IMG/VR virus record: IMGVR_UViG_3300025769_010106
Span: 32,001-96,000 of that record
Length of the DNA: 64,000 bases
Strand: one strand, 5' to 3'
DNA from: a virus
A program made the translations under genes and the position numbers. Below, in pieces: positions 14,377 to 33,806 of the stretch. The notes under the pieces are model-generated. The model did no database searches. It had not been told where the DNA came from and saw nothing but the letters and a program-made list of their open reading frames with translations. Each line of letters opens with the position of its first letter. Position 1 is the first letter of the stretch.

Positions 14377-14660
14377 TGGGCGGCGATAAATCATTTGCTA
14401 ATATTGAAAAGATATTAACCAAGTATGAAAATGAAACTAACAGGTTGGAATTGGTTATTCATGCTGCTCAACTTGCAAGATCCAAAAAGATTTCAGGACG
14501 AGCTGCATTAAATGTTTTAGAAACAGAAACTATTAATTTAAAAGATTTAGACGAGCAACTGATGGATAAACTACAGAAACAAATCCAGAAAGACAATAAA
14601 GAAAAAGAAAGCAAAAAGGTAGATTCAGATGATCCACCTACACAACCTAAACAGACTTAA
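14376..14660 (+). CDS. RNA polymerase omega subunit (RpoZ)-like protein
   Basis: NRLELVIHAAQLAR and AALNVLETETINLKDLDEQLMDKLQK resemble the omega NRF(D/E)LVL.AA.RAR and (V/I)ALREI...L..LQK blocks; AGGAG RBS. Confidence 0.6.
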   Translation: MGGDKSFANIEKILTKYENETNRLELVIHAAQLARSKKISGRAALNVLETETINLKDLDEQLMDKLQKQIQKDNKEKESKKVDSDDPPTQPKQT

Positions 14661-15621
14661 TAAAGAATTAAATACTGCTTTAATAAAAGCTAACGACCTG
14701 GTTCTAAAATCAGGTCGTGTCATGATGGGTGAATATACACTGGAGTTTGAAAGCAGAATAGCAAAAGTATCTGGAGCAAACTACGCATGTGTAGTAGGAA
14801 GTGGAAGCGACGCTCTGTTGTATGCGTTAGTATCTAGTAACACTACAGGACTTGTTGGCATGCCTGCTCAAACTTTTATTGCTACTAAAAATTCTATTTT
14901 AAGAGCTGGATGCATACCTTATTTGGTAGATGTAAAGAATAATGCTCTATTAAATTGGGATTTAATTCCAAACAGTGTTGATTGTGCTGTATGGGTTGGG
15001 TTATTTGGTAACTCTGAACCTCTACCTGATAACTTATTTGTAATAGAAGATGGAGCTCAACATTTTGGAGCAAGGCTTCAATCCAATATTGCAACATATA
15101 GTTTTGATCCTACAAAAAGTCTACCTAACTTTGGCAATGGCGGTGCAGTTGTTAGCAACGACAAACGTGTTATAGACAATGTAAAACTTTTACGCAGACA
15201 TCAAATAGTAAATGGACACACGGGCGGCAACAGCATAATGAGTGAACGTGAGTGTGCTGAAATGTGTGTTAAGTTAGATTACTTTCCTCTTTGGCAAGAG
15301 CGTAGACAGGAGATTGCTAGAGATTATTACACACATTTAGGACATCTTGTAAATTGTGTCACTCAACTAGATGGACAGATAAGCAAGTTTATTATTGAAA
15401 CAACTATGCGGGCTGACCTACAAAAATACCTATCTCACAAACATATAGAGACCAAACGTGCCTATGAACATCCAATATACGAATTTGACCAGGCATCCAA
15501 AAACTGTAAAAGATTTCTACAATTACCCTGTGATCCTTATATGACTGATGAAGAACTGTTAGCTGTTATAATGGCTGTCAAAGAATTCTTTGAGGAAAGC
15601 CCACTCGAAAGTTTGCTGTAG
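14629..15621 (+). CDS. DegT/DnrJ/EryC1/StrS PLP sugar aminotransferase
   Basis: GSGSDAL, TFIAT, IEDGAQ, YSFDPTK(PLP Lys)SL..GNGGA, LQLP. Confidence 0.9.
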   Translation: MIHLHNLNRLNKELNTALIKANDLVLKSGRVMMGEYTLEFESRIAKVSGANYACVVGSGSDALLYALVSSNTTGLVGMPAQTFIATKNSILRAGCIPYLVDVKNNALLNWDLIPNSVDCAVWVGLFGNSEPLPDNLFVIEDGAQHFGARLQSNIATYSFDPTKSLPNFGNGGAVVSNDKRVIDNVKLLRRHQIVNGHTGGNSIMSERECAEMCVKLDYFPLWQERRQEIARDYYTHLGHLVNCVTQLDGQISKFIIETTMRADLQKYLSHKHIETKRAYEHPIYEFDQASKNCKRFLQLPCDPYMTDEELLAVIMAVKEFFEESPLESLL

Positions 15622-17868
15622 ATCATTTCCATCTTCAACATACTTGACAGCATCCTCAGCACCTCGTACACTCCACTTACCATTCTCTCCATTACCAACT
15701 GTAGTCCATTGCTCTAGTCTATAACGACTTTCAATGTCTGACTGTTGAGTAAGTTTTACACATTCGCGGAAGGCTGTACGCCAAGTTTCATATGGCGTGG
15801 TGTTAAAGTCTGCTGTACTTGCTATTACAGGAACAACTCCGTGTCTAGCACTTAGCGTAAAGTCTAGCCCCCATTCAGTAGCATCCAATACCATTTGTTT
15901 GTGGTACGCAATAATACCCATGTGTCCATACTCTAATCCATTAACAGGATTACGACTGTGGAATATCCAATGCTTGGGGCCTTGCAGCCAATCTGGTTGC
16001 CAGTTAAAATTAAAGTCAGGTTCTACAATACACTTAGCAAATACGTTAAAGAACCAGGGTGTCTCACTGATCTCTGCACAGGCCTTATATGCTTCTGCTC
16101 TACCCGTTACACCATCTATGCGCTTGGCTCTAGGGCACATACACTTGAGTAGAAACCAGTTTTTATCGGCGTTTTTTTCACCATTACTAAGATACACAAC
16201 ATCTAGTAGTTTTTCTTCTATATTATAGTCATTATGACGCAATATGTATGGGTAGTCATAGAATTGAGTAGAAAAATGCTGTTTACAGTCCCTAGGCACT
16301 AGTAGTACGCTACCGCTCTGTGTAAAGACGTGCAGATCGGGTTTTTTCCAAAAACTAGGAACATAGTCCAAAGATTTAGTGTCTGTATTCAATATCCAAC
16401 TATATGACTGTGTAACTTCATGTAGTGCATTAACTGTGGGCCAGGGTCTATAAGGGACTGTAACATCCTCTACGTAGTTTATAGTATCAAACCACCCTAA
16501 AACTTTTAGGGTACTGTGTTGACTCTTAAAACGCTCCACAGGGACTAAAAATGTATCACCCTCACGCTGATTACAGCTAGGGAATACATGTAGCATATCC
16601 TTCTGCCAGGGTTCCGGTTCCCAGCCAAAATCAAAGTTAGTGTAATCACAAGTGCTACTCGTAACCCATATATACTCGCTATCTGTACGCTCGCATATTC
16701 TTCCCAGAGTTTCTAACCAGGTACTGAAAAATCTAGTTGTTTTATGATCTAGATCAGGTGTAAACTTATATCCATTACCAAAGTCTACATATACTATTTC
16801 TCTGTTGTCATCAAATAATTCTACCGTTTGATCTTCAACAAAGTTTAATTCTGGAAAGTCTTTAACATCCTCAAACCAAGGTACCAGTCGTAGGAATTCA
16901 AGTCTTGGTACTCTAAACACATTAGCCCATTTTTGAAACTTGCTGCCAAACACATGTATCATGTTGCTTTGCCAAGTTTCTGGATACCATCCAAAGTCAA
17001 AGTCTGTGTAGTCATAGTCACTGCTGACTATCCACACAAAATCACTATTACTATTTTCACAAGCCTTTTTAATAATACTGGCCCAGTTGCCTACACCTCT
17101 AATTTTACGAGCATTTGAATCTTGTGCTAATACTGTGTCAAAACTTTTTTTGTTGTTTTTATTAAATTGGTCTACAACAAAAATATCACTAGTGATCTTG
17201 CTTTTAACCTGTTGCACACTTTCATACTTGATTTCACTAGCACCAGGTGTGTGATATTCAGGACCGCCTTGTCTAGCCCATTTACTACCAAACACATGAA
17301 TGTAACTGTCGGACTTTCTTGGATGCCAACTAAAATCAAAATTATCCAAATCAGCGTTTGGTGGCACATGCCAATTGTTTAAATTTTCTAGTGCTGTTGA
17401 TCGTTGCACACTTTCATATTTTATTTCACTAGCACCGGGTGTATGATATTCAGGACCTCCATCAGGTTGCCATTGTGTTCCAAAAACATGAATATAATTT
17501 TCATTTGGATCTGGATGCCAACTTAAATCAAATTTGTTGGTGTCAATGTTTGAAGGTATTTGCCAGTTGTCAACACATGGCAGTCTAGTTACACGTTGAT
17601 CTTTCATGTAGTGTAAAGGACCAGGATTGTGTTTGGGTGTTAGATAAACTTGTCCGTCTTGTTGCCATTGACTGGGCCATACATACACATGATCATGCTC
17701 CCAGTGCGGAGGCACCATGTCAAAGCGAAAATCTGTGTAGTCATTTTGACCCGATAAATACCAGCAGTATTCAGTACGACTTTGCTGTTGTGCTGCTTCA
17801 ATTGAATCTGCAGGCTGCTCGTGAGCAAATAGATTAGGCTTAGAACCTGTATAGAAAACATCAAACAT
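15559..17868 (-). CDS. Repeat-containing glycosyltransferase-like protein (769 aa)
   Basis: About 6 copies of DFxFxWxPxxW....HV(F/W); C-terminal domain aligns with ORF 30022-30948 (AKRIDGV, TWRTAFRECVKL). Confidence 0.55.
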   Translation of the reverse strand: MFDVFYTGSKPNLFAHEQPADSIEAAQQQSRTEYCWYLSGQNDYTDFRFDMVPPHWEHDHVYVWPSQWQQDGQVYLTPKHNPGPLHYMKDQRVTRLPCVDNWQIPSNIDTNKFDLSWHPDPNENYIHVFGTQWQPDGGPEYHTPGASEIKYESVQRSTALENLNNWHVPPNADLDNFDFSWHPRKSDSYIHVFGSKWARQGGPEYHTPGASEIKYESVQQVKSKITSDIFVVDQFNKNNKKSFDTVLAQDSNARKIRGVGNWASIIKKACENSNSDFVWIVSSDYDYTDFDFGWYPETWQSNMIHVFGSKFQKWANVFRVPRLEFLRLVPWFEDVKDFPELNFVEDQTVELFDDNREIVYVDFGNGYKFTPDLDHKTTRFFSTWLETLGRICERTDSEYIWVTSSTCDYTNFDFGWEPEPWQKDMLHVFPSCNQREGDTFLVPVERFKSQHSTLKVLGWFDTINYVEDVTVPYRPWPTVNALHEVTQSYSWILNTDTKSLDYVPSFWKKPDLHVFTQSGSVLLVPRDCKQHFSTQFYDYPYILRHNDYNIEEKLLDVVYLSNGEKNADKNWFLLKCMCPRAKRIDGVTGRAEAYKACAEISETPWFFNVFAKCIVEPDFNFNWQPDWLQGPKHWIFHSRNPVNGLEYGHMGIIAYHKQMVLDATEWGLDFTLSARHGVVPVIASTADFNTTPYETWRTAFRECVKLTQQSDIESRYRLEQWTTVGNGENGKWSVRGAEDAVKYVEDGNDLQQTFEWAFLKEFFDSHYNS

Positions 17869-18925
17869 GTATAATTTAGAAACCTTTTATCCTACTATCA
17901 GCACATGGTTTAGACGCAAATATGACCATTTGGAACCTGCTGTGGTATACCCTTATCCATATGGCAGTGAACATCCAGAAGATACTGTGTTTGACAGTGC
18001 TTATGAATTTCCTAAGACTGTGTTACTATTATACGATCAAGAACCTTTTTGGTCAAGTATTCGTTGGCTAGATCATTTTGCTGAAATGTTTGCTGATTGG
18101 GGCTCAACAGTAATACTTATTACCACACAAGAATGGGGCACTAATTTAGACTATTATGTTAAAAACTTTAATTGGAAACATGTTTGTTACCAGCACCACC
18201 TGTTAGCATGCAGAGATTGGTATAGGGGTTATAGAAATCATCCACAACTGGTTTCACCTCAACAACGAAAACTTTATAATCATTTTGTATGTTATAATAG
18301 ACTTTTTGCTGAAAATAGACCACATAGAGTTAATCTTCTTAAAGACCTATATGATGATAACATACTATGCAAAGTTGATATGAGTTTTCCTGCAACTGAT
18401 CCTATTACAAATAGTTCTTATGCAGATATATCTGGTCGTAGTGATATACAGTTTATTCTACCATTAGACATAGACGATCCCAATCATAACAACAATAGTT
18501 TTACTTTAGATATACAATCTGCTAATGAAACTGCTATACATATTATTACTGAAACTATTTTCAATATTAAAGAAAATTATCTAAGCGAAAAAAGTTATAA
18601 ACCTATTGCCCTTAAACAACCATTTATAATATTTGGCGCTCCCTATAGCCTTAAGACTTTGCAGGATTTAGGATTTAAAACTTTTGCTAATTTTTGGGAT
18701 GAAAGTTATGATAACATTGAGGACCATGATCTAAGATACAGCAAGGCATATAAAATTGTTAAAGATATTGCTAGCATGTCATTAAATGATATTCAAAATA
18801 TTCTAATACAGTCTACGGATATTCTTGAATATAATTATAACCATTTTTATGCACAGGAAACTTTGGATAATATAGTTAATAATCTATTTTTAGATATTAC
18901 TAAGGCCGCTAGTTACGTAAATTAA
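17867..18925 (+). CDS. Putative glycosyltransferase (GT-B/GT10-like C-terminus)
   Basis: CYNR...HR...IITET....LSEKSYKPI...PFII...LGFKTF..FWDESYD. Confidence 0.5.
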   Translation: MYNLETFYPTISTWFRRKYDHLEPAVVYPYPYGSEHPEDTVFDSAYEFPKTVLLLYDQEPFWSSIRWLDHFAEMFADWGSTVILITTQEWGTNLDYYVKNFNWKHVCYQHHLLACRDWYRGYRNHPQLVSPQQRKLYNHFVCYNRLFAENRPHRVNLLKDLYDDNILCKVDMSFPATDPITNSSYADISGRSDIQFILPLDIDDPNHNNNSFTLDIQSANETAIHIITETIFNIKENYLSEKSYKPIALKQPFIIFGAPYSLKTLQDLGFKTFANFWDESYDNIEDHDLRYSKAYKIVKDIASMSLNDIQNILIQSTDILEYNYNHFYAQETLDNIVNNLFLDITKAASYVN

Positions 18926-18926
18926 A

Positions 18927-19370
18927 TCAAACATCTATTTGTTCCACTGGTATATTACATTCTTTTAAAAACTCTAGTCCATCGTTTAATCGGTAGGGAT
19001 GAACATAGAATATTTCCTTAATACCTGCTTGATATAAGCCTTTAGAACATTCCATGCAGGGCTGATGTGTTATAAAGGCACTAGCACCTTCGCCACTTTC
19101 AGTAGATCGGGCCAACTTCATAAGAGCATTCATTTCCGCGTGAAGTACTTCTGGTTTGGTCACTAACTCAACATGATCCGCAGTGCCATTGCCTGTCATA
19201 AATTGTGTCTCACATTCATTAGTCCAGCCGCTGGGCATGCCATTATAGCCAATGCTAATCACACGATTGTCTTTTACAATCACACAGCCAACCTGTAGTC
19301 TAACCGCAGTACTACATTCGGCATATGCAAATGCAGCCTTCATGTGAGCTACTTTGTGTTTTTCCTTCAC
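18927..19370 (-). CDS. dCMP deaminase (ComEB/cytidine deaminase family)
   Basis: IGYNG, HAEMNA and PCMEC zinc motifs; start GTG 19370 or ATG 19391. Confidence 0.92.
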   Translation of the reverse strand: MKEKHKVAHMKAAFAYAECSTAVRLQVGCVIVKDNRVISIGYNGMPSGWTNECETQFMTGNGTADHVELVTKPEVLHAEMNALMKLARSTESGEGASAFITHQPCMECSKGLYQAGIKEIFYVHPYRLNDGLEFLKECNIPVEQIDV

Positions 19371-19434
19371 CAGCCTATGCCTCGTCGCCATCTCATTTTA
19401 TATAGTTTTACTAAAAGTTTGAATAACATAATCT

Positions 19435-19794
19435 CTAAAATCCTAAATCCATTCTCCATGGATACATTGTATAGCCAAGAGGACGTAAGACGAACTCTTC
19501 AAACAGTACGATTAAAACAATACCAAATACCCATTGTACCCAACGTGGCCAAGTTGTTCGCCAACGTGTAAAGGGACGCAATATCCATGCTAATATATTG
19601 GTTACCTTACCCCAGAACCAATCACCTACACTAAAGGGAGGAACTTTCCACAGTACTACAGGAACTATTAACCACCATATCCACTGTGGATAGTCGTCAT
19701 TGGGCTCATCTATTACAATCATTAGAACCAGTAGTGCTAGTAGGTATGCACCAATCCATTTTTTCATATGTGCTAGTTTATGTTTTTCTTTCAT
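19435..19794 (-). CDS. Trp-rich membrane protein; first 11 codons duplicate the dCMP deaminase N-terminus
   Basis: Three hydrophobic segments; MKEKHKLAHMK start. Confidence 0.65.
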   Translation of the reverse strand: MKEKHKLAHMKKWIGAYLLALLVLMIVIDEPNDDYPQWIWWLIVPVVLWKVPPFSVGDWFWGKVTNILAWILRPFTRWRTTWPRWVQWVFGIVLIVLFEEFVLRPLGYTMYPWRMDLGF

Positions 19795-20088
19795 TTAAAA
19801 TATACCTATCATTAGTTTAGTATCTTCCGGTATAAGATCAGGTCCCCACTGTGGTTCCCATACAAGTTCACGTTCTACTTCTGTCACACCGTCAACATTT
19901 TTGCAGGCTTGGTATATGTCTTCGCATATTTGATCGGCAAATGGACACATAAAACTTGTTAAGCTATGCTTTACATGAACTTTAGTTTTTTCTATTTCTA
20001 TACTATATATCAAACCCAAATCGTAAACATTAACGCTTATCTCTGGATCATAGACAAGACGTAGTGCTTCTATTATCTTATCTTTCAT
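19795..20088 (-). CDS. SufT/DUF59 Fe-S cluster assembly protein
   Basis: VYDPEI..VYDLGLIY...TSFMCP...WEPQW. Confidence 0.9.
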   Translation of the reverse strand: MKDKIIEALRLVYDPEISVNVYDLGLIYSIEIEKTKVHVKHSLTSFMCPFADQICEDIYQACKNVDGVTEVERELVWEPQWGPDLIPEDTKLMIGIF

Positions 20089-21566: not shown

Positions 21567-21664
21567 TTGTAGATAAAAGGGTCCCTACGTCTCAACTCTT
21601 TTAGTCGCTTGCGATACTGTATCTCAAGTTTAATTCTGTTAATAAGGTTGCGAATCCAACGCAT
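21563..21664 (-). CDS. 33-aa basic peptide ending DPFIYK (absent from the ORF track)
   Basis: MRWIRNLINRIKLEIQYRKRLKELRRRDPFIYK; AGGAG RBS; ATGA overlap with the carbamoyltransferase start. Confidence 0.8.
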   Translation of the reverse strand: MRWIRNLINRIKLEIQYRKRLKELRRRDPFIYK

Positions 21665-21676
21665 TATATTCTCCTG

Positions 21677-21901
21677 TTATTGTCCGTACCAGTTATGTAT
21701 TCCAAGGAACGCTGCGCCAAAGTAAAACATCTCCATTAGCATCCTAGGCATGTCACGATCTTTATAAGCAAAGTATGCCCATGCGGCGCAAGACACACTA
21801 CTGAGTGCCCATCCCATCCATTGTATGCTGACTATGCCACTTGTTAAAATAAACAATGCTGTAACAGCACCCACAAACCCCAACCATCTTTGTATTCTCA
21901 T
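21677..21901 (-). CDS. Small 3-TM membrane protein
   Basis: Three hydrophobic helices; ATGA coupling. Confidence 0.7.
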   Translation of the reverse strand: MRIQRWLGFVGAVTALFILTSGIVSIQWMGWALSSVSCAAWAYFAYKDRDMPRMLMEMFYFGAAFLGIHNWYGQ

Positions 21902-27326: not shown

Positions 27327-28665
27327 TCTGATACCAATCCTTCAATTCTGGAAATACTGAGATTAAGTCCTTTTTTCTACGCACGTCATACTGACTATAA
27401 AACTTTTTAAAGTCATTGTGTAGTTTAGGCATTTCAAATGCTTCACTGTGCGGTGTTTCTACTGTACGCAAATATGTTACCAGTCGTTCCAACTGTCCTT
27501 GTTCAAACTGGTGCATGGGTGTACTACGGTTAAGAAACTTGGGTGCCCAGCGTTTGTATAGGTCTTCCAATTTATCAGCGTGACGATTGCGTATATCCAA
27601 TGGAAGTACTAGTGCCGACTGGAAACTTGGAAAGCGTAATATATTTAAACTGAATACTGCAAAATTATTCCCTAACAGTCTTCTTGTTTGTAATATTTGC
27701 TCGATTAGGTCTGGTAGTGTCTCCAAGCACAGCGCATTAACTGTCATCATGCAATGTGTGCCAACGCCTGCCTCACTCAATCTGCAAATATTTTCCCACC
27801 AATAGTCCCAATCTAATCCGTCACGTATATATTCTGCAGGCGCCCCTACTGCTTCACAACTGGTGTAAACATCCAAGCTAGGCAAGTAATTACGAGCATC
27901 AATTAGTCTGTCAATTAACTCACCCTTGCCTCCTAAGTTACTATTAATAGCAAGTTTGGTTTGGCTTTTGTCTGCGTTTGCTTTGAACCAATCTATTAAA
28001 CGCCACAAGTCTGCGCTCATTGTTGGCTCACCGCCGGTAACTCGTAGTTCACGTAATGTTTTATGTAAGTCTGTATCCCACCATTTAAAAAATGCTTCTA
28101 CGTAAGGATTTCTATCCTCCACCCCATAAAGCTGGCTACTACTATGAACGTGAGTAAAGTGGTTACGGCCATCACTAACAAGGCCCTTATAACTGCCATT
28201 TGTTTTTAGGTCCTTTACCCATGTGGTGCTAAAAGCAGGATTACAGTAACTACAAGCAAAATTGCAGGTACGATCAAATGCAATTTCGAGTGTACGGAGA
28301 TTGACGTCAATATCATGCGGGCTATTTCGTGCATCTTGTAATTCCTCATCAGTATATATCTTGCTCTTATATACACGGTCACTTATAAAATTAGGACCCA
28401 TATCTTCAATTTTCCAACAATACTCACAGCCGGTTGGACGCTCTCCACACTGCATTTGTCGCCGCTGTTCTTTTTTCTCTGGTGTATTGTGTAACAATTT
28501 TGGATTAGTTTCAACAGCAACAGGATCTACTTTATGTGGTAATGGATGATGGCAACTAGTAGTCATGCCAGATCCTAACCAGATAGTAGCATTATACCAT
28601 TTAGCACCACAAAAGGTCGGACTAAGTTTGTCTAGAACTTCCTGTTTATAAATTAAGTCATCCAT
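27319..28665 (-). CDS. N-terminal twitch-domain radical SAM protein 4
   Basis: CGAKW...SCHHP...CEYCW; CNFACSYC; GGEP. Confidence 0.9.
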   Translation of the reverse strand: MDDLIYKQEVLDKLSPTFCGAKWYNATIWLGSGMTTSCHHPLPHKVDPVAVETNPKLLHNTPEKKEQRRQMQCGERPTGCEYCWKIEDMGPNFISDRVYKSKIYTDEELQDARNSPHDIDVNLRTLEIAFDRTCNFACSYCNPAFSTTWVKDLKTNGSYKGLVSDGRNHFTHVHSSSQLYGVEDRNPYVEAFFKWWDTDLHKTLRELRVTGGEPTMSADLWRLIDWFKANADKSQTKLAINSNLGGKGELIDRLIDARNYLPSLDVYTSCEAVGAPAEYIRDGLDWDYWWENICRLSEAGVGTHCMMTVNALCLETLPDLIEQILQTRRLLGNNFAVFSLNILRFPSFQSALVLPLDIRNRHADKLEDLYKRWAPKFLNRSTPMHQFEQGQLERLVTYLRTVETPHSEAFEMPKLHNDFKKFYSQYDVRRKKDLISVFPELKDWYQNV

Positions 28666-30025
28666 TTGCTATATACCTACATTCATCCCAAAATTCTCTC
28701 ATCTCAGGAAATGTTTGTTCAAAGTTTGTGCCGCGGCGACGATCATGCTCACTAAAAAATCTATAAAAGTCTGCTCTGCGCGTGTCCACATCACTTACAT
28801 TATCCACACCCTGCATCCAGACTAGATCACGTCTCATCTTTAGTACTTCGTAGTCCTTAAATCCGTGCATCTCATCTAAATTTGATTCCATAAATTTTAT
28901 ACAGTCTTTAAGATATAACTGATATGCCGGAGTTAATATCTGCATACTTTGCCATTCAGGAGTATACAGTAATGGAGTATCAAACCAAATACGCTGATAA
29001 CTTTTGGTATAAGTCTTGCGAAGGTATAAAATATATTCTAGCAGTCTTTTCAAACTAATAATATTAAGATTACTCATAGTAATTATTAGAGTTAAACTAC
29101 TGCGATAGGGAATGTCGCGCACAAATCTTTCTATGCGTGACTTACAAAGTTCAAAGTCAAGTCCATGTCTAATATATTCAGCCTGTGCACCCCAGGTATC
29201 TAAGCTAACAAACTGCATGAAGTGTTCAATCTTTTCACCCTGTGTAAGCTGATGTATATAACCCATATAGTTTTCAAAAATATAATCATCTGTACTAAAG
29301 TTACTAGTAGTGTTTAAATGCAAATCTTTTTTAGGATTATCAAGCACATAATCAAACACACGATAGGTATTTGGATCCATGGTAGGTTCGCCACCAGTCA
29401 TACGAAAATGTTTTAGGTCTTTGTATAGATCAGGCCACCAACGCCAGAATGCTTCACGGTATGGATTGGCATCTTTATTGGGGATTGGTTTGCGTTCACC
29501 AATAAAATGTGCAGGATCATTATGTGGTGTGCTAGTAGGATAAGAACCATACTGCTTGGCTTCGCGTTCCCAGGTACTACTAAACTGTGGGCTACAATAA
29601 CTGCACTTCAAATTGCAAGCGTGATTAAAGTTAACTTCTACATAACTTGGATTTACATCTGCTTGTGGATTTGCTACAATATCAGCAAATGATTCCATAG
29701 CCCAGGGTTCACCACTGCGATAATGACGATCACTGATTGCGTTAGGTTGACTTTCAATATTCCAACAGTAGTTGCATTCAGTACACTTGACACCCTGTAT
29801 CATTTCAGCACGGCGCTCTTTCTTATGTGCAGTATTATGCAGGGCACTTGGATTGTCTGCAAGCGGCTCAACAGGAATGCGATGCAGTGGGGGATGGTAG
29901 CAACTATTGGTATGTCCGGTTGTTAAGTGTAGACTAACCTGTTTCCATTTAGCCAGGCAGAAACTATCGCTCACAGTAGCGAGTTTATACTTTGCTATAT
30001 TAGCATCAAAAAGGTAATCACTCAC
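28658..30025 (-). CDS. N-terminal twitch-domain radical SAM protein 5
   Basis: CLAKW...SCYHP...CNYCW; CNLKCSYC; GGEP. Confidence 0.9.
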   Translation of the reverse strand: MSDYLFDANIAKYKLATVSDSFCLAKWKQVSLHLTTGHTNSCYHPPLHRIPVEPLADNPSALHNTAHKKERRAEMIQGVKCTECNYCWNIESQPNAISDRHYRSGEPWAMESFADIVANPQADVNPSYVEVNFNHACNLKCSYCSPQFSSTWEREAKQYGSYPTSTPHNDPAHFIGERKPIPNKDANPYREAFWRWWPDLYKDLKHFRMTGGEPTMDPNTYRVFDYVLDNPKKDLHLNTTSNFSTDDYIFENYMGYIHQLTQGEKIEHFMQFVSLDTWGAQAEYIRHGLDFELCKSRIERFVRDIPYRSSLTLIITMSNLNIISLKRLLEYILYLRKTYTKSYQRIWFDTPLLYTPEWQSMQILTPAYQLYLKDCIKFMESNLDEMHGFKDYEVLKMRRDLVWMQGVDNVSDVDTRRADFYRFFSEHDRRRGTNFEQTFPEMREFWDECRYIANG

Positions 30026-30948
30026 CAGCCTTCGGCCTTTCTAATAACTTCTATTTCTGTAGTCATAGGATCGTATGCATGATAGGTTTGACTATAATAG
30101 TGCTTGAAGAATCTACTTTGTTCTGGTGTGTAATCAACGATTGGTAATTCAAGTTTACGTCTTAGTATAGCACCATATTCAGTAAAGTTTTCATCCCCAA
30201 TATCCCATTCTTCTTCCCAAATTCTATCCAAACTAGCAAAGTCTCTAACTTCATGCCAGTCCCAATCAGTACACATTAGTTTATATGTACCGTACCTAGC
30301 ACCATACATTGCCTCAAACCCATATTGTGCGTCAGCACCAACACTGTGCCAAACACAGAGCTTGTCAAAGTTTTTAGCATGTACCTGTTGCTTAAATTCT
30401 TCTACAGTAGGCTTGCGTCCTTTGTTAAGGCACATCTTAACGCCTTCTCTAAAACCAGCACGGAACGCATGTCTAGCACTACCATTAGGATATGTAGTAC
30501 TATAAACATTGTTCATTGCAAGATACTTGTCGTCAAAGCAAAACTCTACTACAGTTTCATCTGTACCGTCAGTTGCTTCATGTGTCTGCATATTATTAAC
30601 AAACTCACGTGTCCAGCAACTAAGTCCACCGTTGCCATACATAAGCCCGTTTATATTATTGCGAGCTTTCCAACGAAACACGCAATCAGCATATTCCTCT
30701 TTTATATCTAATACAAGATTGAAAAACGATTCATCAGGTATGTTGTCACCGTCTATGAGAACAAAGCGTTCTGTTTCACTTACTGCTGCCGCTGCTTTGT
30801 GTGCTGCATCACTTCCTTGCACACCATCCACACGTTTGGCCCAGGGAACCATATTTTGGATTTGAATCCAGAACTCTTCCTTTTTAGGTTCGTCAAATGA
30901 AAGATAGATGCAGTCTAGATCTGCAATATCAATTATTTGTCCAGCCAC
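30022..30948 (-). CDS. GT-A fold glycosyltransferase-like protein
   Basis: VLIDGD DxD motif after a nucleotide-binding N-terminus; YGNGG; AFRAGFREGVKM. Confidence 0.6.
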   Translation of the reverse strand: MAGQIIDIADLDCIYLSFDEPKKEEFWIQIQNMVPWAKRVDGVQGSDAAHKAAAAVSETERFVLIDGDNIPDESFFNLVLDIKEEYADCVFRWKARNNINGLMYGNGGLSCWTREFVNNMQTHEATDGTDETVVEFCFDDKYLAMNNVYSTTYPNGSARHAFRAGFREGVKMCLNKGRKPTVEEFKQQVHAKNFDKLCVWHSVGADAQYGFEAMYGARYGTYKLMCTDWDWHEVRDFASLDRIWEEEWDIGDENFTEYGAILRRKLELPIVDYTPEQSRFFKHYYSQTYHAYDPMTTEIEVIRKAEGW

Positions 30949-31163
30949 TCGTGCAACCTTGCTACATCTTGGTCACTGTCTATACATACACGAATACCAC
31001 GTGCATACACTGTGCGGTCTAGTTCATAGCTAGAACTAAATGACTGTTCACAAAACAATTTTAGCTCTGTGAATAGTTCTTGATTGTCTCTAAATTGAGC
31101 ATCATAAATTATATCACCTGAATTTGCCACATGTGGTAGAGGAACATATACTTCATTCTGCAT
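30933..31163 (-). CDS. Hypothetical small protein
   Basis: Operon-coupled; AAGGAG RBS. Confidence 0.6.
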   Translation of the reverse strand: MQNEVYVPLPHVANSGDIIYDAQFRDNQELFTELKLFCEQSFSSSYELDRTVYARGIRVCIDSDQDVARLHEWLDK

Positions 31164-31470
31164 TTTCTATCTCCTTTATACAAAAATATGGATTATTTTT
31201 TAATGTAATTGCTGGTGTGGCTTGCCAGTAAACATGGACGGCTGTATCTATATCAACGATTTTGCCATCCTGAACACGCTGTCTTATAGGATATACCAGT
31301 GTATCCTCTGATATAACGATATAGTCTTCAGTCCAGTGTTCAGCTTTATTTACATGACAATAGTTAATAATTTCACCAGTTTCTTTATTGTAGCGCAAAC
31401 GAACCTCAAGTTCAACCTTAGTGCGATTGCCTAATAATTCAACTATTAATTTTTTTAACTCTGTACTCAT
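31153..31470 (-). CDS. Hypothetical protein
   Basis: Operon-coupled. Confidence 0.65.
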   Translation of the reverse strand: MSTELKKLIVELLGNRTKVELEVRLRYNKETGEIINYCHVNKAEHWTEDYIVISEDTLVYPIRQRVQDGKIVDIDTAVHVYWQATPAITLKNNPYFCIKEIENAE

Positions 31471-32287
31471 ATCTATCTATCAATTCTGGAGTGCAAAATG
31501 TTTTATCGTAATAGTGGAATGGATACTGTTGTGCATATCCGCCTACAATTAAATCAAAATCGTCTGTTAGTGTCCATGATACAGCATCCTGCCAGCGCAT
31601 ACTATTCTTCCAGTTATTAATTGCCGGCTTCATATGTGTAAACGTCGGATAACTTAATTTATTTGAACAAGGTATTCCAAGATTTAACTGTGCTAGCGCA
31701 TAAAGAACATCAGTGTCAGGTTTGTCATAGATACTATACTCAAGAACACTGTCACGCAACTCAGCCCAATGGTGTATCGCCTGCTCAATAGCTCTACAGA
31801 AGCCCACACTAGTCCTACTGTACCTAAAATATGAAAACCCATTATAAGCATCATCAAGCTGATTGGCATCAAAAAACTTCCTGTAGTAACGTGTTTGGGC
31901 AATATTACCCTGGTAATCTCTTACACTATTAGTATAGCACACATCATTTAATCTACAACCGTTCCACCAGTGATCCAAACTGCGAGGAATAATCATGTCA
32001 CTTTCTACTTTAAATGTTTCCTTAAAGGGTGTAACATTTATAATCCATGCTTCGTTGTAGAAAGGTTCTGTGCGTGGTACTGTAATTATGTGATCAAATA
32101 TCTTACGTTGCTGTTCTGTAATAGTTGCCTCAGATTCAGCATCAACTACTACGGCAAATCTGTTGTGCTTACAAGTTGCCTTTACGCTTAGAGCAAGTAA
32201 GTAGGCGAGGTCAACATAGTTTGTTGCCTTACTGTTCTGTGCAAATGTTAGCCAACCCTGTGGCTCATCCTTGGGTTGCATACGCAT
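31439..32287 (-). CDS. GT8-like glycosyltransferase-fold protein
   Basis: TPFKETFKVESDM (DxD position), PDTDVLYALA, THMK; paralogue of the next gene. Confidence 0.55.
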   Translation of the reverse strand: MRMQPKDEPQGWLTFAQNSKATNYVDLAYLLALSVKATCKHNRFAVVVDAESEATITEQQRKIFDHIITVPRTEPFYNEAWIINVTPFKETFKVESDMIIPRSLDHWWNGCRLNDVCYTNSVRDYQGNIAQTRYYRKFFDANQLDDAYNGFSYFRYSRTSVGFCRAIEQAIHHWAELRDSVLEYSIYDKPDTDVLYALAQLNLGIPCSNKLSYPTFTHMKPAINNWKNSMRWQDAVSWTLTDDFDLIVGGYAQQYPFHYYDKTFCTPELIDRYEYRVKKINS

Positions 32288-33050
32288 CTAGTGCTCCGTA
32301 TATTTCTGGGTCCTGTAAACAGGCTTTGTTCATACAGTGTAAGTTTACGCCTTTGAGTTTAACAGCATTATACTTGTCACCGTCTTGATAGCGTATGCGT
32401 AGTTCATCACCTTTAGCAGAATAGATAGTGTCCATTGTGCTTAAACTACCCAGTGGATGATTAAAGTAAGTACCACTAGCATAGCCATTCATAAGCTGAT
32501 GTGCAATAGTTAGACTAAAGTCATTGCGATATTTGCCTGCTACAAATCCCCAAAACTTTGCGTAGTAACGCCAGTTGGTCTGTACGTTTTTCATCATTTC
32601 AAATATATTATGGGCTAGGTCGCACTTGCGAAAGTAAACGACCGTAGCCCATAACATTGGATGGCCGGCCCTGGTCATCCTTTGATCGTTACGGAAACTA
32701 TTTGTGGAGGTAACATCCCATACACGATCATAACATAAAAACTCATTTGCACTACCAAAGTACTGTTTTAGATTATCATTAAACGTAAGGTAGTCTACGT
32801 CTATTAAGAGTGTTTCATCATAAGGGCTTAAATCATATGCCAGTGTTCTATCACTGTTATACCATGGCACTGTAACAACTTGACCATCATGCCAGCGGAA
32901 CGCTCTAGTATTGCCTGGCTGTGCTTCACCTACATGTATGTGTGTTTCAATGTCTAAATGTTTTTCTACAAGTTTTGCCGCTAGGTTAGCAAAACCCGTA
33001 TAGTCTATTGTTTCATGTGGTGTAGCAAGTAAGAGTGCGCCCTTACTCAT
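32265..33050 (-). CDS. GT8-like glycosyltransferase-fold protein
   Basis: SPYDETLLIDVDY, WATVVYF, YRNDFSLTIA, HCMNK. Confidence 0.6.
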   Translation of the reverse strand: MSKGALLLATPHETIDYTGFANLAAKLVEKHLDIETHIHVGEAQPGNTRAFRWHDGQVVTVPWYNSDRTLAYDLSPYDETLLIDVDYLTFNDNLKQYFGSANEFLCYDRVWDVTSTNSFRNDQRMTRAGHPMLWATVVYFRKCDLAHNIFEMMKNVQTNWRYYAKFWGFVAGKYRNDFSLTIAHQLMNGYASGTYFNHPLGSLSTMDTIYSAKGDELRIRYQDGDKYNAVKLKGVNLHCMNKACLQDPEIYGALDAYATQG

Positions 33051-33447
33051 TAATACGTTTCCTTAAATCACTTGTACTAAAACGATGCTCTCTTTTATTA
33101 AAATAAAATTCTATACCTCGTTTTGCACATATGGCTCTTCCAGTAAACTTTCCATCTCTATATTCTTCGCCAAGTATACGAACATTAATATGATACATTG
33201 ACAAAATATCTTCTAAATCCTGTTCAGTGCAGTAGGGAACAATTTCGTCTACGTATCTTACTCCCTTTAGTTGTGTATAACGTTCAACCACAGTTTGAAC
33301 TGGCTTGTTCTTTTCCGGTCTATCAATACTAGGATCAACCTGTAATCCGCATATTAGGTAATCGCATTGTTCTTTTGCTTCACGTAACATTTGCACATGG
33401 CCAGCATGTAAAAGATCAAACGCAGATGCTGTAAATCCTACTCTCAT
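33043..33447 (-). CDS. Cytidylyltransferase (TagD/glycerol-3-phosphate cytidylyltransferase-like)
   Basis: FDLLHAGH (HxGH), ER...YVDE, RFSTSDLR. Confidence 0.88.
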   Translation of the reverse strand: MRVGFTASAFDLLHAGHVQMLREAKEQCDYLICGLQVDPSIDRPEKNKPVQTVVERYTQLKGVRYVDEIVPYCTEQDLEDILSMYHINVRILGEEYRDGKFTGRAICAKRGIEFYFNKREHRFSTSDLRKRINE

Positions 33448-33770
33448 AGTTGTTCTACACGTCTAACCTTTTTTAATTCAGCATGCTGATTGTGCCAATC
33501 GTTCATTACTTCGTACCAGCGTTGTCTACATTGTACTAACATGTCACAAGCATCTGTAATCTTTACTGGATTATCGTAGTCGTCTACGAGATATAGCAGT
33601 TCATCTGCTGGCCATGTTGCTAGTAGAGACATTAGTTCTACTGTAACTTTAAACTGTCCACCATCATATGTGATAGTGAGACGCTGTTCCTGTTGTTCTT
33701 TAAGAGCCAAGCGTTGACGATTGTGGTCAAGACGCTGGCGTGCGAATTGTTCGAATGTTTCTAAGGTCAT
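33444..33770 (-). CDS. Hypothetical protein, first gene of the tailoring operon (probably leaderless)
   Basis: ATG 33770 lies 7 nt after the -10 box; the track's 33806 start is the TTG of the -35 box. Confidence 0.65.
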   Translation of the reverse strand: MTLETFEQFARQRLDHNRQRLALKEQQEQRLTITYDGGQFKVTVELMSLLATWPADELLYLVDDYDNPVKITDACDMLVQCRQRWYEVMNDWHNQHAELKKVRRVEQL

Positions 33771-33777
33771 GTAAGAT

Positions 33778-33806
33778 AGTATAACAGGGCTATATAGCCC
33801 TGTCAA
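33778..33806 (-). promoter_or_regulatory. sigma70 promoter TTGACA-N17-TATACT with a 20-bp perfect palindrome
   Basis: Minus strand TTGACA GGGCTATATAGCCCTGT TATACT; ACAGGGCTATATAGCCCTGT at 33784-33803 is self-complementary. Confidence 0.8.

What the first reader, a model, noticed from the sequence alone, without database searches (positions are those of the whole stretch)
14629..33806. Phage biosynthetic-like cluster: five N-twitch radical SAM enzymes, carbamoyltransferase, aminotransferase, glycosyltransferase-like proteins, cytidylyltransferase and SufT beside the tail genes
Seen: a mostly overlapping gene run from the 33.8-kb promoter encoding, in order, a cytidylyltransferase, two GT8-like proteins, a GT-A-like protein, four radical SAM enzymes, an SGNH-like protein, a fifth radical SAM, an unknown His/Glu protein, a membrane protein, a 33-aa peptide, a carbamoyltransferase and SufT. 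A GT-B-like gene, a repeat GT-like gene and a DegT aminotransferase lie just beyond. It is co-oriented and directly downstream of Ser/Thr-rich fibre and baseplate genes. Known: twitch radical SAM enzymes such as BtrN oxidise aminocyclitols, TobZ/NodU O-carbamoylate sugars, DegT/StrS enzymes aminate keto-sugars, TagD-type enzymes make CDP-polyols, and SufT aids Fe-S maturation under high demand. Inference: a self-contained pathway that builds and radically tailors an unusual glycan, most plausibly on virion proteins, alternatively on DNA bases or the host envelope. I know of no characterised phage system with this composition.
Basis: partly seen in the sequence, partly recalled or inferred. Interest (0 to 1): 0.9.

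Follow-up and report, generated by a model that had tools for sequence, protein, structure and literature searches.

The report
Jumbo-phage radical-SAM sugar-tailoring operon
A fragment of an uncultured giant phage carries, just after its tail-fibre genes, a tightly packed and widely conserved operon of sugar-transferring enzymes, five iron-sulfur "radical SAM" enzymes from a family with no known reaction, a carbamoyl-adding enzyme and a near-invariant 33-residue peptide; it most likely builds a heavily edited sugar decoration, but its product and target are untested.

Summary
All five radical SAM genes are members of NCBIfam NF033640 (N-terminal twitch). The carbamoyltransferase, DegT aminotransferase, nucleotidyltransferase and DUF59/SufT-like protein are real. 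Two paralogues are glycogenin-like (GT8-like), one has a GT-A fold, and the SGNH-like call has weak profile support. The GT-B call stays unproven.

Corrections:
- The first gene is an unknown 108-aa protein, not the cytidylyltransferase.
- DegT sits in the opposite-strand ThyX operon.
- A dCMP deaminase and a membrane protein at the end of the run were missed.
- The record is about 31% of a jumbo phage.

The core order recurs in most of the 80 loci examined, out of at least 552 viral contigs holding the radical SAM family, and in reduced, split form in the cultured Ralstonia phage RsoM2USA. It runs g01, GT8-like x2, GT-A, radical SAM A-E, g14, 33-aa peptide, carbamoyltransferase.

New here:
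- The operon has its own sigma70-type promoter with a leaderless first gene, conserved in relatives. It is not a T4-type late promoter.
- The peptide is under strong purifying selection and tracks the carbamoyltransferase.
- Complete relatives lack a ThyA-type hydroxymethylase.

Best reading: a soluble glycan-building and radical-tailoring pathway with an unknown acceptor. This scan had already noted the module on other DNA, in at least 59 genomes.

The parts
33778..33806 (-). Sigma70-type promoter TTGACA-17-TATACT with a TG extension and a 14-nt palindrome in the spacer. The -10 ends 7 nt before the ATG of the first gene, which implies a leaderless mRNA.
   Evidence: this is the only exact TTGACA-N15-19-TATAMT match in the 64-kb window; 23 of 29 relatives have a match of 9/12 or better here, and in 17 of them the -10 ends 5-6 nt before the ATG.
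33444..33770 (-). g01: first gene of the operon, 108 aa, unknown function, conserved
   Evidence: tblastn finds it in 31 of 80 loci at about 101-115 aa. No Pfam or PHROG family. Homologue in RsoM2USA ORF354.
33043..33447 (-). Cytidylyltransferase-fold nucleotidyltransferase (RfaE-domain-II/TagD-like); an accessory gene
   Evidence: PF01467, E 7e-14. TIGR02199 at 74.5 bits and TIGR01518 at 62.5 bits, both below cutoff. Present in 1 of 80 related loci.
32265..33050 (-). GT8-like (glycogenin-like) putative retaining glycosyltransferase, paralogue 1, with invariant DxD
   Evidence: Alignment A2 has invariant D84/D86 and H238/K242. hhalign to the g04 family gives 99.8%, E 2e-28.
31439..32287 (-). 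GT8-like (glycogenin-like) putative glycosyltransferase, paralogue 2
   Evidence: The A3 profile hits glycogenin-1 chains at E 2e-8 over about 108 N-terminal residues.
31153..31470 (-). g05: small conserved protein (105 aa) between the GT8 pair and the GT-A gene
   Evidence: Matches the HMM of a 117-aa family found in 30 loci at this position, E 1.6e-9.
30933..31163 (-). g06: 76-aa ORF of unknown function, poorly conserved
   Evidence: Homologue found only in L007.
30022..30948 (-). g07: GT-A-fold enzyme with invariant DxD and a C-terminal helical domain. It is the best-conserved unknown of the module.
   Evidence: A4 alignment, 52% mean column identity. AF2 pLDDT 88. Foldseek and VIA hits are all GT-A glycosyl- or nucleotidyl-transferases, Z about 10, 140 residues, rmsd 3.2. 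Present in 63 of 80 loci and in RsoM2USA ORF350.
28658..30025 (-). Radical SAM A (N-terminal twitch)
   Evidence: NF033640, 306 bits. Orthologues at 54-80% identity in relatives.
27319..28665 (-). Radical SAM B (N-terminal twitch)
   Evidence: NF033640, 304 bits. Orthologue at 53% identity in RsoM2USA ORF202.
25998..27326 (-). Radical SAM C (N-terminal twitch)
   Evidence: NF033640, 391 bits. Pfam SPASM at residues 40-103, ahead of Radical_SAM at 149-306. At least 6992 protein clusters at 90% identity (the database's grouping) in metagenomes.
24782..26011 (-). Radical SAM D (N-terminal twitch)
   Evidence: NF033640, 360 bits.
24222..24791 (-). SGNH/GDSL-like protein (DUF6071-like family)
   Evidence: Matches the HMM of a family present in 38 loci, E 1.4e-13. 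A family member hits DUF6071. The A10 profile hits GDSL proteins at E 1.6e-5.
22952..24229 (-). Radical SAM E (N-terminal twitch)
   Evidence: NF033640, 294 bits.
21898..22971 (-). g14: conserved 357-aa protein of a phage-only fold, a beta-barrel with an inserted helical bundle carrying invariant His/Glu
   Evidence: A5 alignment. AF2 pLDDT 85. No Foldseek PDB hit. Only weak VIA matches, to cyclophilin-like barrels at Z about 7 and to helical bundles. BFVD hits are all uncharacterised phage proteins.
21677..21901 (-). 74-aa membrane protein; an accessory gene
   Evidence: Weak, sub-threshold match to the N-terminus of PnuC. Present in 1 of 80 loci.
21563..21664 (-). pep33: conserved 33-aa basic peptide ending in DPFIYK; its stop codon overlaps the carbamoyltransferase start
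   Evidence: Found in 46 loci. The 17 C-terminal residues are invariant or K/R while codons vary freely across 47 distinct sequences. Positions relative to the carbamoyltransferase are and the alignment A9.
20085..21566 (-). TobZ/NodU-type carbamoyltransferase
   Evidence: PF16861, E 3e-50, and PF02543, E 2.5e-31. Present in 43 of 80 loci. 46% identical to RsoM2USA ORF199.
19795..20088 (-). DUF59/FeS_assembly_P (SufT-like) protein; an accessory gene
   Evidence: PF01883, E 9.5e-18. TIGR02945 at 104 bits, below the 143 cutoff. Present in 1 of 80 viral loci, plus L083.
19435..19794 (-). 119-aa predicted membrane protein, unknown function
   Evidence: The sequence is hydrophobic. No family found.
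18927..19391 (-). dCMP deaminase at the 3' end of the run; probably nucleotide metabolism rather than part of the pathway
   Evidence: PF00383, E 2e-20. Present in 3 of 80 loci. A 43-nt gap precedes it.
17867..18925 (+). g20: conserved 352-aa protein, possibly GT10-like. Relatives carry paralogues inside the main operon.
   Evidence: Hits in 50 of 80 loci. Between radical SAM A and B in relatives. ESM-Atlas lead to GT10 at 0.79 only. No PDB or Pfam hit.
15559..17868 (-). g21: 769-aa protein with 5-6 'FDFSWHP...IHVFG' repeats and a C-terminal g07-like GT-A domain that lacks DxD. Its start overlaps the g20 start (CATG).
   Evidence: blastp g07 against g21 residues 555-706, 32% identity, E 2e-16; sequence inspected. 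Hits in 66 of 80 loci, many through the g07-like domain.
14629..15621 (+). DegT/DnrJ/EryC1-family sugar aminotransferase. Here it lies in the + strand ThyX operon; in 7 relatives it lies inside the module.
   Evidence: PF01041, E 3.6e-40. Loci L013, L017, L025, L032, L038, L041 and L045.

Best explanation
This is an autonomous operon of an uncultured jumbo phage that encodes a soluble, cytoplasmic pathway for building and then radically editing a sugar chain.

Proposed steps. All of them are inferred; none is shown.
1. Host RNA polymerase starts at a sigma70-type promoter and makes a leaderless polycistronic mRNA.
2. Two glycogenin-like (GT8-like) transferases, a GT-A-fold transferase and the g20/g21 proteins assemble a short glycan on a cytoplasmic acceptor. 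They use mostly host NDP-sugars. This phage adds its own RfaE/TagD-like nucleotidyltransferase and a DegT aminotransferase.
3. Five anciently diverged radical SAM paralogues carry out successive H-atom-abstraction steps on that glycan. Each has one N-terminal 4-Cys auxiliary cluster. The steps could be oxidation to keto-sugars, epimerisation, dehydration or C-C bond formation.
4. The SGNH-like protein removes or moves an acyl group.
5. The TobZ/NodU-type enzyme O-carbamoylates a hydroxyl, working with or on the 33-residue peptide.
6. The SufT-like protein helps to load the roughly ten Fe-S clusters.

The acceptor is unresolved. A virion fibre or baseplate protein is the single most likely candidate, at about one in three.
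For: SHOWN
- Family assignments.
- Tight translational coupling.
- Conserved order u2-u1-g01-GT8x2-g05-GT-A-rSAM A..E-g14-pep33-CarbT-g20/g21. Taken gene by gene, these hit between 30 and 66 of the 80 viral loci examined, out of at least 552 contigs that encode the radical SAM family. Radical SAM orthologues are 45-80% identical; paralogues are only 20-31%.
- A reduced version in cultured phage RsoM2USA, next to a GDP-mannose 4,6-dehydratase gene.
- Accessory genes in relatives are sugar-nucleotide enzymes: UDP-Glc dehydrogenase in 10 loci, NAD epimerase/dehydratase in 12, DegT in 7. SGNH-like proteins occur in 38 loci.
- No gene of the window's run matched a lipid-carrier transferase, flippase or polymerase family in the Pfam/PHROG scans run here. 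That fits a soluble acceptor.
- A conserved sigma70-type, leaderless promoter.

ESTABLISHED KNOWLEDGE
- GT8 enzymes transfer hexoses from NDP-sugars.
- TobZ/NodU enzymes O-carbamoylate sugar hydroxyls.
- DegT enzymes aminate keto-sugars.
- The twitch enzyme BtrN oxidises a cyclitol hydroxyl.
- Viruses can glycosylate their own virion proteins (chlorovirus A64R appears among the fold matches).
Against: - No product, substrate or acceptor is known for any gene here.
- NF033640 has no characterised member. Its bacterial homologues sit in unrelated contexts: ACP-SDR-ketosynthase in Paenibacillus, GT2 in a Cellvibrionaceae genome, proline racemases in Nitratireductor. The sugar substrate is therefore inferred from neighbours only.
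- The closest solved radical SAMs (viperin, SkfB) match only weakly.
- The GT8-like proteins fall below Pfam detection. g20 has no detectable fold family. g21 lacks DxD.
- The promoter type and the terminator after the fibre gene uncouple the module from late fibre expression. That weakens the virion-acceptor idea.
- Most relatives lack a nucleotidyltransferase and DegT, so the amino-sugar logic is not general.
Confidence: 0.5

Rival explanations
1. Host-envelope remodelling. The soluble GT8-like and GT-A enzymes, the heptose-type nucleotidyltransferase and the carbamoyltransferase act early in infection on the host's lipid A-core or another envelope glycan, at the cytoplasmic face. This would change the receptor and block superinfection, or stop progeny from re-adsorbing to debris.
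For: - The sigma70-type (early-class) promoter is conserved.
- GT8 is the family of the LPS-core transferases RfaI/RfaJ (established knowledge).
- The nucleotidyltransferase scores best against RfaE domain II, the ADP-heptose enzyme.
- PMC7029224 proposed exactly this role for GT8, rfaE and radical SAM cassettes beside fibre genes of pelagimyophages.
- Two small membrane proteins lie in this window's run.
Against: - No membrane-anchored transferase, lipid-carrier enzyme or transporter is conserved in the module.
- Five to ten radical SAMs have no precedent in LPS biosynthesis.
- The module is conserved at 45-80% identity across phages of apparently very different environments and hosts. That is unexpected if the target were a variable host surface glycan.
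- The RfaE-like gene is in only 1 of 80 relatives.
Confidence: 0.17
2. DNA hypermodification. The transferases and the carbamoyltransferase decorate a modified base in phage DNA, by analogy with 5hmC glucosylation and 5-carbamoyloxymethylcytosine. The radical SAMs elaborate the appendage.
For: - The promoter is of the early class.
- A phage TobZ-type carbamoyltransferase is proven to make 5-carbamoyloxymethylcytosine, and it co-occurs with dCMP-deaminase domains (PMC8670742).
- In this window a dCMP deaminase lies 0.7 kb downstream and ThyX lies nearby.
- According to an earlier, unchecked note of this scan, the same genome encodes a 7-deazaguanine/DpdA pathway.
Against: - Two complete relatives with terminal repeats (337 and 347 kb) carry the module and ThyX but no ThyA-family enzyme that could be a dCMP/dUMP hydroxymethylase.
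- The dCMP deaminase is next to the module in only 3 of 80 loci.
- In the eLife study, carbamoyltransferases on unmodified contigs were the ones flanked by glycosyltransferases.
- Four or five transferase-like genes are more than known base glycosylations need.
- No DNA-binding or base-flipping domain was detected.
Confidence: 0.1
3. Peptide-based product. The invariant 33-residue peptide is the scaffold. Like PqqA or MftA, its C-terminal DPFIYK is processed by the radical SAM enzymes, then glycosylated (as MftF does for mycofactocin) and carbamoylated, giving a glyco-peptide or peptide-derived cofactor.
For: - pep33 is a real gene under strong purifying selection, with an invariant Tyr-containing C-terminus.
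- SPASM/twitch radical SAMs typically act on peptides (established knowledge), and NCBIfam secondary hits are to peptide maturases.
- g07's fold matches include the glycocin S-glycosyltransferases SunS and ThuS.
Against: - pep33 tracks the carbamoyltransferase and the SGNH-like genes, not the radical SAMs. Loci with 4-8 radical SAMs but no carbamoyltransferase lack it.
- RsoM2USA has radical SAM A/B and the carbamoyltransferase but no pep33.
- No RiPP-recognition (PqqD-like) domain or peptidase was detected in the Pfam scans.
- The peptide is extremely basic and helical, more like a binding partner than a core peptide.
Confidence: 0.1
4. Free small-molecule product. The operon makes a diffusible pseudo-oligosaccharide or aminoglycoside-like or nucleoside-like metabolite, for example to inhibit competing phages or host functions, rather than decorating a macromolecule.
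For: The enzyme set resembles aminoglycoside tailoring (BtrN, BtrS, TobZ; established knowledge): twitch radical SAMs, a DegT aminotransferase, a TobZ-type carbamoyltransferase, glycosyltransferases and an APS-kinase-like kinase in 10 relatives. Small membrane proteins are present in this window.
Against: - No cyclitol or scaffold synthase (for example a 2-deoxy-scyllo-inosose synthase) was found.
- No exporter or self-resistance gene is conserved.
- DegT is absent from most relatives.
- The fixed position behind the fibre genes would be unexplained.
Confidence: 0.08

Closest known systems
NCBIfam NF033640, N_Twi_rSAM (twitch domain-containing radical SAM protein)
   Same: All five radical SAMs score far above the family cutoff. 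They share its architecture: an N-terminal 4-Cys twitch/SPASM-like domain ahead of the CX3CX2C core.
   Different: The family is catalogued but, as far as I know and as far as full-text searches show, has no characterised reaction. Here it occurs as five fixed orthologue groups in tandem (2-10 per locus in relatives). Bacterial members are mostly single and lie in unrelated contexts.
'Host recognition cluster' of pelagimyophages and cyanomyophages (Zaragoza-Solas et al. 2020, PMC7029224)
   Same: A region beside the tail-fibre genes of T4-like aquatic myophages. It holds GT8 glycosyltransferases, rfaE-type genes and radical SAM cassettes, and cyanophage and pelagiphage genomes also carry Nol-like carbamoyltransferases.
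   Different: That region is described as hypervariable and non-syntenic, with an LPS-modifying role only guessed. The module here is a fixed, ordered operon with orthologous radical SAM A-E, g14 and pep33, conserved across jumbo-phage contigs. None of these parts was described there.
Virus-encoded glycosylation of virion proteins (chlorovirus PBCV-1 A64R and related GTs; mycobacteriophage capsid and tail-tube glycosylation; Mimivirus fibrils)
   Same: Soluble virus-encoded GT-A-type transferases use host NDP-sugars. A64R is among g07's fold matches. The genes lie next to structural genes.
   Different: None of those systems contains radical SAM enzymes, a carbamoyltransferase or a conserved micropeptide. 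Glycosylated virion proteins have not been shown here, and the operon has an early-type promoter.
Aminoglycoside tailoring enzymes BtrN (twitch radical SAM dehydrogenase), BtrS/DegT-type aminotransferases and TobZ (O-carbamoyltransferase)
   Same: The same three enzyme superfamilies occur together. There is one fully Cys-ligated auxiliary cluster, as in BtrN. The TobZ-type two-domain carbamoyltransferase is present.
   Different: The twitch domain is N-terminal rather than C-terminal. Profile similarity to solved radical SAMs is only weak. There is no cyclitol synthase. DegT is not a core gene.
Phage 5-hydroxymethylcytosine carbamoyltransferase (Yang et al. 2021, PMC8670742)
   Same: A phage-borne TobZ/NodU-family enzyme. 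A dCMP deaminase domain lies nearby in this window.
   Different: That enzyme is paired with a ThyA-family dCMP hydroxymethylase. Complete relatives of this phage have ThyX and no ThyA-family gene. Here the enzyme is embedded among glycosyltransferase-like genes, the context the paper reports for unmodified contigs.

Membership tests
NF033640 N_Twi_rSAM | Whole-protein score above NCBIfam's curated cutoff (170 bits) | tested here: met
   294, 304, 306, 360 and 391 bits for the five proteins
NF033640 N_Twi_rSAM | CX3CX2C radical SAM cluster motif, preceded rather than followed by a Cys-rich twitch/SPASM-like domain | tested here: met
   Invariant C154/C158/C161 and N-terminal C40/C59/C100/C103 in alignment A1. 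In three paralogues Pfam SPASM lies at residues 8-103, ahead of Radical_SAM.
NF033640 N_Twi_rSAM | Reductive SAM cleavage and a defined substrate | not testable with these tools
   Needs anaerobic biochemistry. No characterised member was found in full-text searches.
GT8 (glycogenin/LgtC-type retaining glycosyltransferases) | Sequence membership (Pfam PF01501 above gathering score) | tested here: not met
   No Pfam hit for 32265-33050 or 31439-32287 at E 0.01. I therefore call them GT8-like, not GT8 members.
GT8 (glycogenin/LgtC-type retaining glycosyltransferases) | Profile-level homology to a solved GT8 catalytic domain | tested here: met
   The A3 profile against glycogenin-1 gives E 2.3e-8 over profile positions 2-108. 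A2 is a paralogue of A3 at 99.8%.
GT8 (glycogenin/LgtC-type retaining glycosyltransferases) | DxD metal/NDP-sugar motif and a C-terminal His...Lys motif | tested here: inconclusive
   The g03 family has invariant D84-x-D86 and H238/K242. The g04 family has E-x-D (invariant D97) and H218/K220. The correspondence to glycogenin residues was not verified structurally.
GT-A fold glycosyltransferase (g07) | Rossmann-like GT-A fold with DxD after beta-4 | tested here: met
   AF2 pLDDT 88. VIA Z 8.2-10.0, about 140 residues, rmsd 3.2-4, all matches GT-A transferases or nucleotidyltransferases. Invariant D66-x-D68. Transferase versus nucleotidyltransferase cannot be told apart from the fold.
TobZ/NodU O-carbamoyltransferases | Both Pfam domains (Carbam_trans_N and Carbam_trans_C) above gathering score | tested here: met
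   109.8 and 170.6 bits against cutoffs of 24 and 27
TobZ/NodU O-carbamoyltransferases | Equivalog identity with NodU | tested here: not met
   NF041651 at 133.7 bits against a cutoff of 1000. It is a family member, not NodU itself.
Phage 5hmC carbamoyltransferase system (PMC8670742) | Co-occurrence with a ThyA-family dCMP hydroxymethylase that supplies 5hmC | tested here: not met
   PF00303 is absent from two complete module-bearing relatives that have ThyX instead. The window's own record is only 31% complete.
SufT (Fe-S assembly factor) | DUF59/FeS_assembly_P domain | tested here: met
   PF01883 at 64.7 bits against a cutoff of 23.5
SufT (Fe-S assembly factor) | Equivalog-level score (TIGR02945 / TIGR03406) | tested here: not met
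   104.3 against 143.4 and 76.1 against 202.6 bits. It is a DUF59-domain protein and SufT-like only.
DegT/DnrJ/EryC1/StrS aminotransferases | Full-length Pfam PF01041 match | tested here: met
   138.7 bits over profile positions 8-359 of 360. No equivalog cutoff is reached, so the sugar specificity is unknown.
SGNH/GDSL hydrolases | Block I GDS(x) Ser nucleophile plus blocks II, III and V | tested here: inconclusive
   The A10 profile hits GDSL proteins at E 1.6e-5, but only over blocks I-II. The G-C-S motif is nearly invariant and a late His is conserved. No structure was predicted.
GT-B / GT10 fucosyltransferase-like (g20) | Detectable homology or fold match to GT-B enzymes | tested here: inconclusive
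   No Pfam, PHROG or PDB-profile hit. Only an ESM-Atlas feature lead at 0.79 to GT10 clusters, plus a TEK-containing conserved block that I recall as GT10-like.
Peptide-derived cofactor/RiPP systems (PQQ, mycofactocin) | Short precursor peptide plus a SPASM/twitch radical SAM with a peptide-recognition (PqqD/RRE) element and a peptidase | tested here: inconclusive
   The peptide is present and conserved. No PqqD/RRE or peptidase family appeared in the Pfam scans. The peptide co-varies with the carbamoyltransferase, not with the radical SAMs.

The most novel reading that the evidence does not exclude
The five (up to ten in relatives) N-terminal-twitch radical SAM paralogues catalyse a series of radical sugar-editing reactions with no known counterpart. 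These would act on a phage-made glycoconjugate: a virion-protein glycan, or a glycosylated and carbamoylated form of the invariant 33-residue peptide. That would make this a new class of virus-encoded post-translational glycan-tailoring system, widespread in aquatic and soil jumbo phages.
Probability: 0.3. Interest if true: 0.9.

Novelty: new variant of a known kind. Interest (0 to 1): 0.7.

Why it matters
- The module is very common. The radical SAM C orthologue alone has at least 6992 protein clusters (90% identity) in metagenomes, on contigs up to 374 kb. It takes 15-30 kb of coding capacity in a widespread lineage of giant phages, yet nothing is known about its product.
- It would give the first functional handle on a whole radical SAM family (NF033640).
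- It could reveal new sugar, or sugar-peptide, radical chemistry.
- It could show how large phages decorate their particles, their DNA or their host's surface. That bears on host range, on immune and defence evasion between phages and bacteria, and on enzyme discovery.
- A cultured phage, Ralstonia phage RsoM2USA, carries a minimal version, so the question is directly testable.

Tried and rejected
- Nucleotide similarity. Megablast of the whole region against 50,697 phage records found no match. Only protein-level relatives exist among cultured phages: RsoM2USA, Vibrio phages K566/K567 and a marine single-cell virus.
- PHROGs. Scans of the unknown proteins gave nothing usable.
- PDB profile searches. 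The g03, g07, g14 and g20 families gave no significant hits.
- g14 fold. Foldseek against the PDB found nothing. VIA-wide gave only Z 7-9.7 matches to generic helical bundles and cyclophilin-like barrels, which I treat as uninformative. The ESM Atlas gave no usable hit for g14.
- Bacterial contexts of NF033640. These were examined in the hope of transferring a function. They are heterogeneous, so the idea was dropped. Five of the 'bacterial' loci are phage contigs binned into metagenome-assembled genomes.
- The genome search 'relatives' is not available for a virus record.
- The Tet/JBP search in the own record found nothing, but its control also found nothing, so it says nothing.
Peptide binding and expression therefore remain untested.
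- Pfam at E up to 1 on pep33, g01 and the two membrane proteins gave only noise.
- pep33 as a split-off N-terminus of, or frameshift fusion with, the carbamoyltransferase: rejected. The enzyme starts with the canonical family N-terminus, and in about half of the loci an SGNH-like gene separates the two.
- The literal reading 'run starts at the cytidylyltransferase': rejected.

Full report
WHAT IS THERE

The window is 64 kb of a 108-kb viral record that CheckV rates 31% complete. Relatives are 250-374 kb, so this is a fragment of a jumbo phage.

From 64 kb down to 33.8 kb the minus strand encodes structural proteins:
- a baseplate hub with lysozyme;
- gp25-like and gp6-like wedge proteins;
- a 4444-aa virion protein;
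- two fibre proteins (1202 and 488 aa) that share a C-terminal intramolecular-chaperone-like domain;
- a 315-aa Ser/Thr/Ala-rich protein.

Directly behind it, a run of 19 minus-strand ORFs extends from 33770 to 18927. Start/stop overlaps of 4-32 nt occur at almost every junction.

CHECK OF THE ANNOTATIONS

All five radical SAM proteins are clear members of NCBIfam NF033640 (294-391 bits, cutoff 170). They share CX3CX2C and four invariant N-terminal cysteines. This means one auxiliary cluster placed ahead of the core, the reverse of BtrN or anSME. Against solved structures, only weak profile similarity to viperin and SkfB is seen.

Other assignments:
- The carbamoyltransferase has both TobZ/NodU domains.
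- The 97-aa protein is a DUF59/FeS_assembly_P protein, below the SufT equivalog cutoffs.
- The 134-aa protein is a cytidylyltransferase-fold nucleotidyltransferase. It scores slightly better against RfaE domain II than against TagD, and both are below cutoff.
- Using alignments built from related loci, the 282-aa family matches glycogenin (GT8) at E 2e-8. The 261-aa family is its paralogue (hhalign 99.8%). Neither reaches Pfam detection.
- The 308-aa protein g07 gave a confident model (pLDDT 88). Its residues 5-156 match only GT-A transferases and nucleotidyltransferases, at Z about 10 over about 140 residues with rmsd 3.2. It has an invariant DxD.
- The 189-aa protein belongs to a DUF6071-like family present in 38 related loci. 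That family's profile hits GDSL/SGNH proteins at E 1.6e-5, over the first blocks only.
- g14 (357 aa) has a confident model, but its fold is found only in uncharacterised phage proteins.
- The 352-aa 'GT-B-like' gene has no detectable family. There is only a 0.79 ESM-Atlas lead to GT10.
- The 769-aa protein has five or six 'FDFSWHP...IHVFG' repeats and a C-terminal g07-like domain without DxD.
- DegT is real. However, it lies on the + strand, coupled to the ThyX block.

CONSERVATION

The radical SAM family occurs on at least 552 IMG/VR contigs. The C orthologue alone has at least 6992 protein clusters (90% identity, the database's own grouping) in metagenomes.

I compared 80 related loci. One gene order recurs. 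Its core genes are hit in 30-66 of the 80 loci, and many of the loci are truncated. The order is:
fibre (u2), u1, g01, GT8-like x2, g05, g07, radical SAM A, B, C, D, E, g14, pep33, carbamoyltransferase, g20/g21.

The five radical SAMs form orthologue groups that are 45-80% identical across phages. Paralogues are only 20-31% identical. The array is therefore ancient, and each copy has kept its own role. Relatives hold 2-10 copies.

The nucleotidyltransferase, SufT-like protein, 74-aa membrane protein and dCMP deaminase are rare accessories, found in 1-3 of 80 loci. DegT occurs in 7 loci, and there it lies inside the module.

Other recurrent accessories:
- B12-type and other radical SAMs;
- an APS-kinase-like kinase;
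- UDP-glucose dehydrogenase;
- an NAD epimerase/dehydratase.

One cultured phage, the Ralstonia jumbo phage RsoM2USA, has a reduced and split version:
- ORF354-349 correspond to g01, GT8-like x2, g07 and an A-type radical SAM. They lie beside a GDP-mannose 4,6-dehydratase gene and structural genes.
- ORF199-202 hold the carbamoyltransferase and a B-type radical SAM that is 53% identical.

Bacterial NF033640 homologues are common in Bdellovibrionota and Flavobacteriales and also occur in Paenibacillus. They are mostly single-copy and sit in unrelated neighbourhoods, so no function can be transferred from them.

TWO POINTS TESTED BEYOND THE FINDING

(a) The promoter.
- The 'promoter at 33.8 kb' is TTGACA-17-TATACT with a TG extension. 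The listed TTG start codon is its -35 hexamer.
- The -10 ends 7 nt before the ATG at 33770. That ATG fits the 101-115-aa length of the homologues.
- In 23 of 29 relatives a sigma70-type match of 9/12 or better lies upstream of g01. The rate upstream of internal genes is 11-41%.
- In 17 relatives the -10 ends 5-6 nt before the ATG, which implies a leaderless mRNA. Many relatives also have a GC-hairpin plus T-run after the fibre gene.
- The T4-type late motif TATAAATA occurs on this strand before the 1202-aa fibre gene, not before the module.
- The module is therefore its own transcription unit, probably read by unmodified host polymerase. Co-orientation with the fibre genes is not evidence of co-expression.

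(b) The peptide.
- The 33-aa ORF is a real gene. It occurs in 46 loci. Its last 17 residues (YRKKLKELRKRDPFIYK) are invariant or K/R, while 47 distinct nucleotide versions use up to six synonymous codons per site.
- It tracks the carbamoyltransferase, either overlapping its start or separated from it by an SGNH-like gene. It is absent where that enzyme is absent. It is also absent from RsoM2USA and from cyanophage-type carbamoyltransferase loci.

INTERPRETATION

The recognisable parts and the accessory genes of relatives point to NDP-sugar-based chemistry carried out by soluble enzymes. No gene of the window's run matched a lipid-carrier transferase, flippase or polymerase family in the Pfam/PHROG scans run here. 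I therefore read the operon as a pathway that assembles a short glycan on a cytoplasmic acceptor and then edits it by radical chemistry, de- or trans-acylation and O-carbamoylation. I put this at about 0.5.

The acceptor is open. My rough odds are:
- a virion fibre or baseplate protein, about one in three (constant position; viral precedents);
- host LPS-core or other envelope glycan (early-type promoter; GT8 and RfaE-like genes; PMC7029224);
- DNA (PMC8670742). This is disfavoured because two complete relatives have ThyX and no ThyA-type hydroxymethylase, and because the dCMP deaminase adjacency is not conserved;
- pep33 itself;
- a free metabolite.

NOVELTY

No paper in the searchable library describes this operon or a reaction for NF033640. 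The nearest description is the loosely defined 'host recognition cluster' of pelagimyophages. This scan had already flagged the same module in at least 59 other genomes. I reused and tested two leads from those notes, the early-type promoter and the 33-residue peptide. I class the finding as a new variant of virus-encoded glycosylation and tailoring, with a real chance of new enzymology.

Noticed in passing
window 33778-33806 (minus); L003 about 4060-4125; L005 about 2850-2917: In this phage and its two closest relatives, a long perfect palindrome lies in or across the promoter of the operon. Here it is GGGCTATATAGCCC in the spacer; the relatives have different sequences in the same place. It may be an operator for a dimeric regulator or a 5' hairpin.
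   Followed up: partly
window 17866-17869: The start codons of the divergent genes g20 (+) and g21 (-) overlap in the palindrome CATG, so each gene's promoter must lie inside the other's coding sequence. The back-to-back arrangement is kept in relatives (for example L002 and L077).
   Followed up: partly
window 40605-53939 (minus): A single 4444-aa ORF matches the PHROG 'virion structural protein' family phrog_10938 (1189 bits). It lies between the baseplate wedge gene and the fibre genes. RsoM2USA has a 2541-aa counterpart at the same position.
   Followed up: no
L083, L085, L086, L152, L154 (genome contigs): Contigs carrying the full phage module, including fibre genes, are binned into MAGs labelled Legionellales, Haliscomenobacter and Rickettsiales. 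This is either mis-binned phage DNA or a hint to hosts.
   Followed up: no
L087-L161 (genome contigs): Bacterial NF033640 homologues are strikingly frequent in predatory Bdellovibrionota/Bacteriovoracaceae MAGs, with up to five copies per locus. In two Paenibacillus isolates the gene sits in an ACP - radical SAM - SDR - ketosynthase x2 operon, which suggests a lipid or polyketide substrate there.
   Followed up: partly
window 13436-15621 (+): ThyX, two small ORFs and the DegT aminotransferase are translationally coupled on the + strand. This is an odd pairing of nucleotide metabolism with a sugar aminotransferase. An earlier first-stage note of this scan read the 94-aa ORF (14376-14660) as an RNA polymerase omega mimic.
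   Followed up: no
L002 9287-10810; L003 16785-17412; L010 14877-16409: In many relatives pep33 is sandwiched between two SGNH/DUF6071-like genes, directly upstream of the carbamoyltransferase. This suggests a conserved sub-module of esterase, peptide and carbamoyltransferase.
   Followed up: partly
window 21677-21901 (minus): The 74-aa membrane protein has a sub-threshold match to the N-terminal third of the PnuC nicotinamide-riboside transporter family (18.8 bits). It may be a fragment or a mini-protein derived from it.
   Followed up: no
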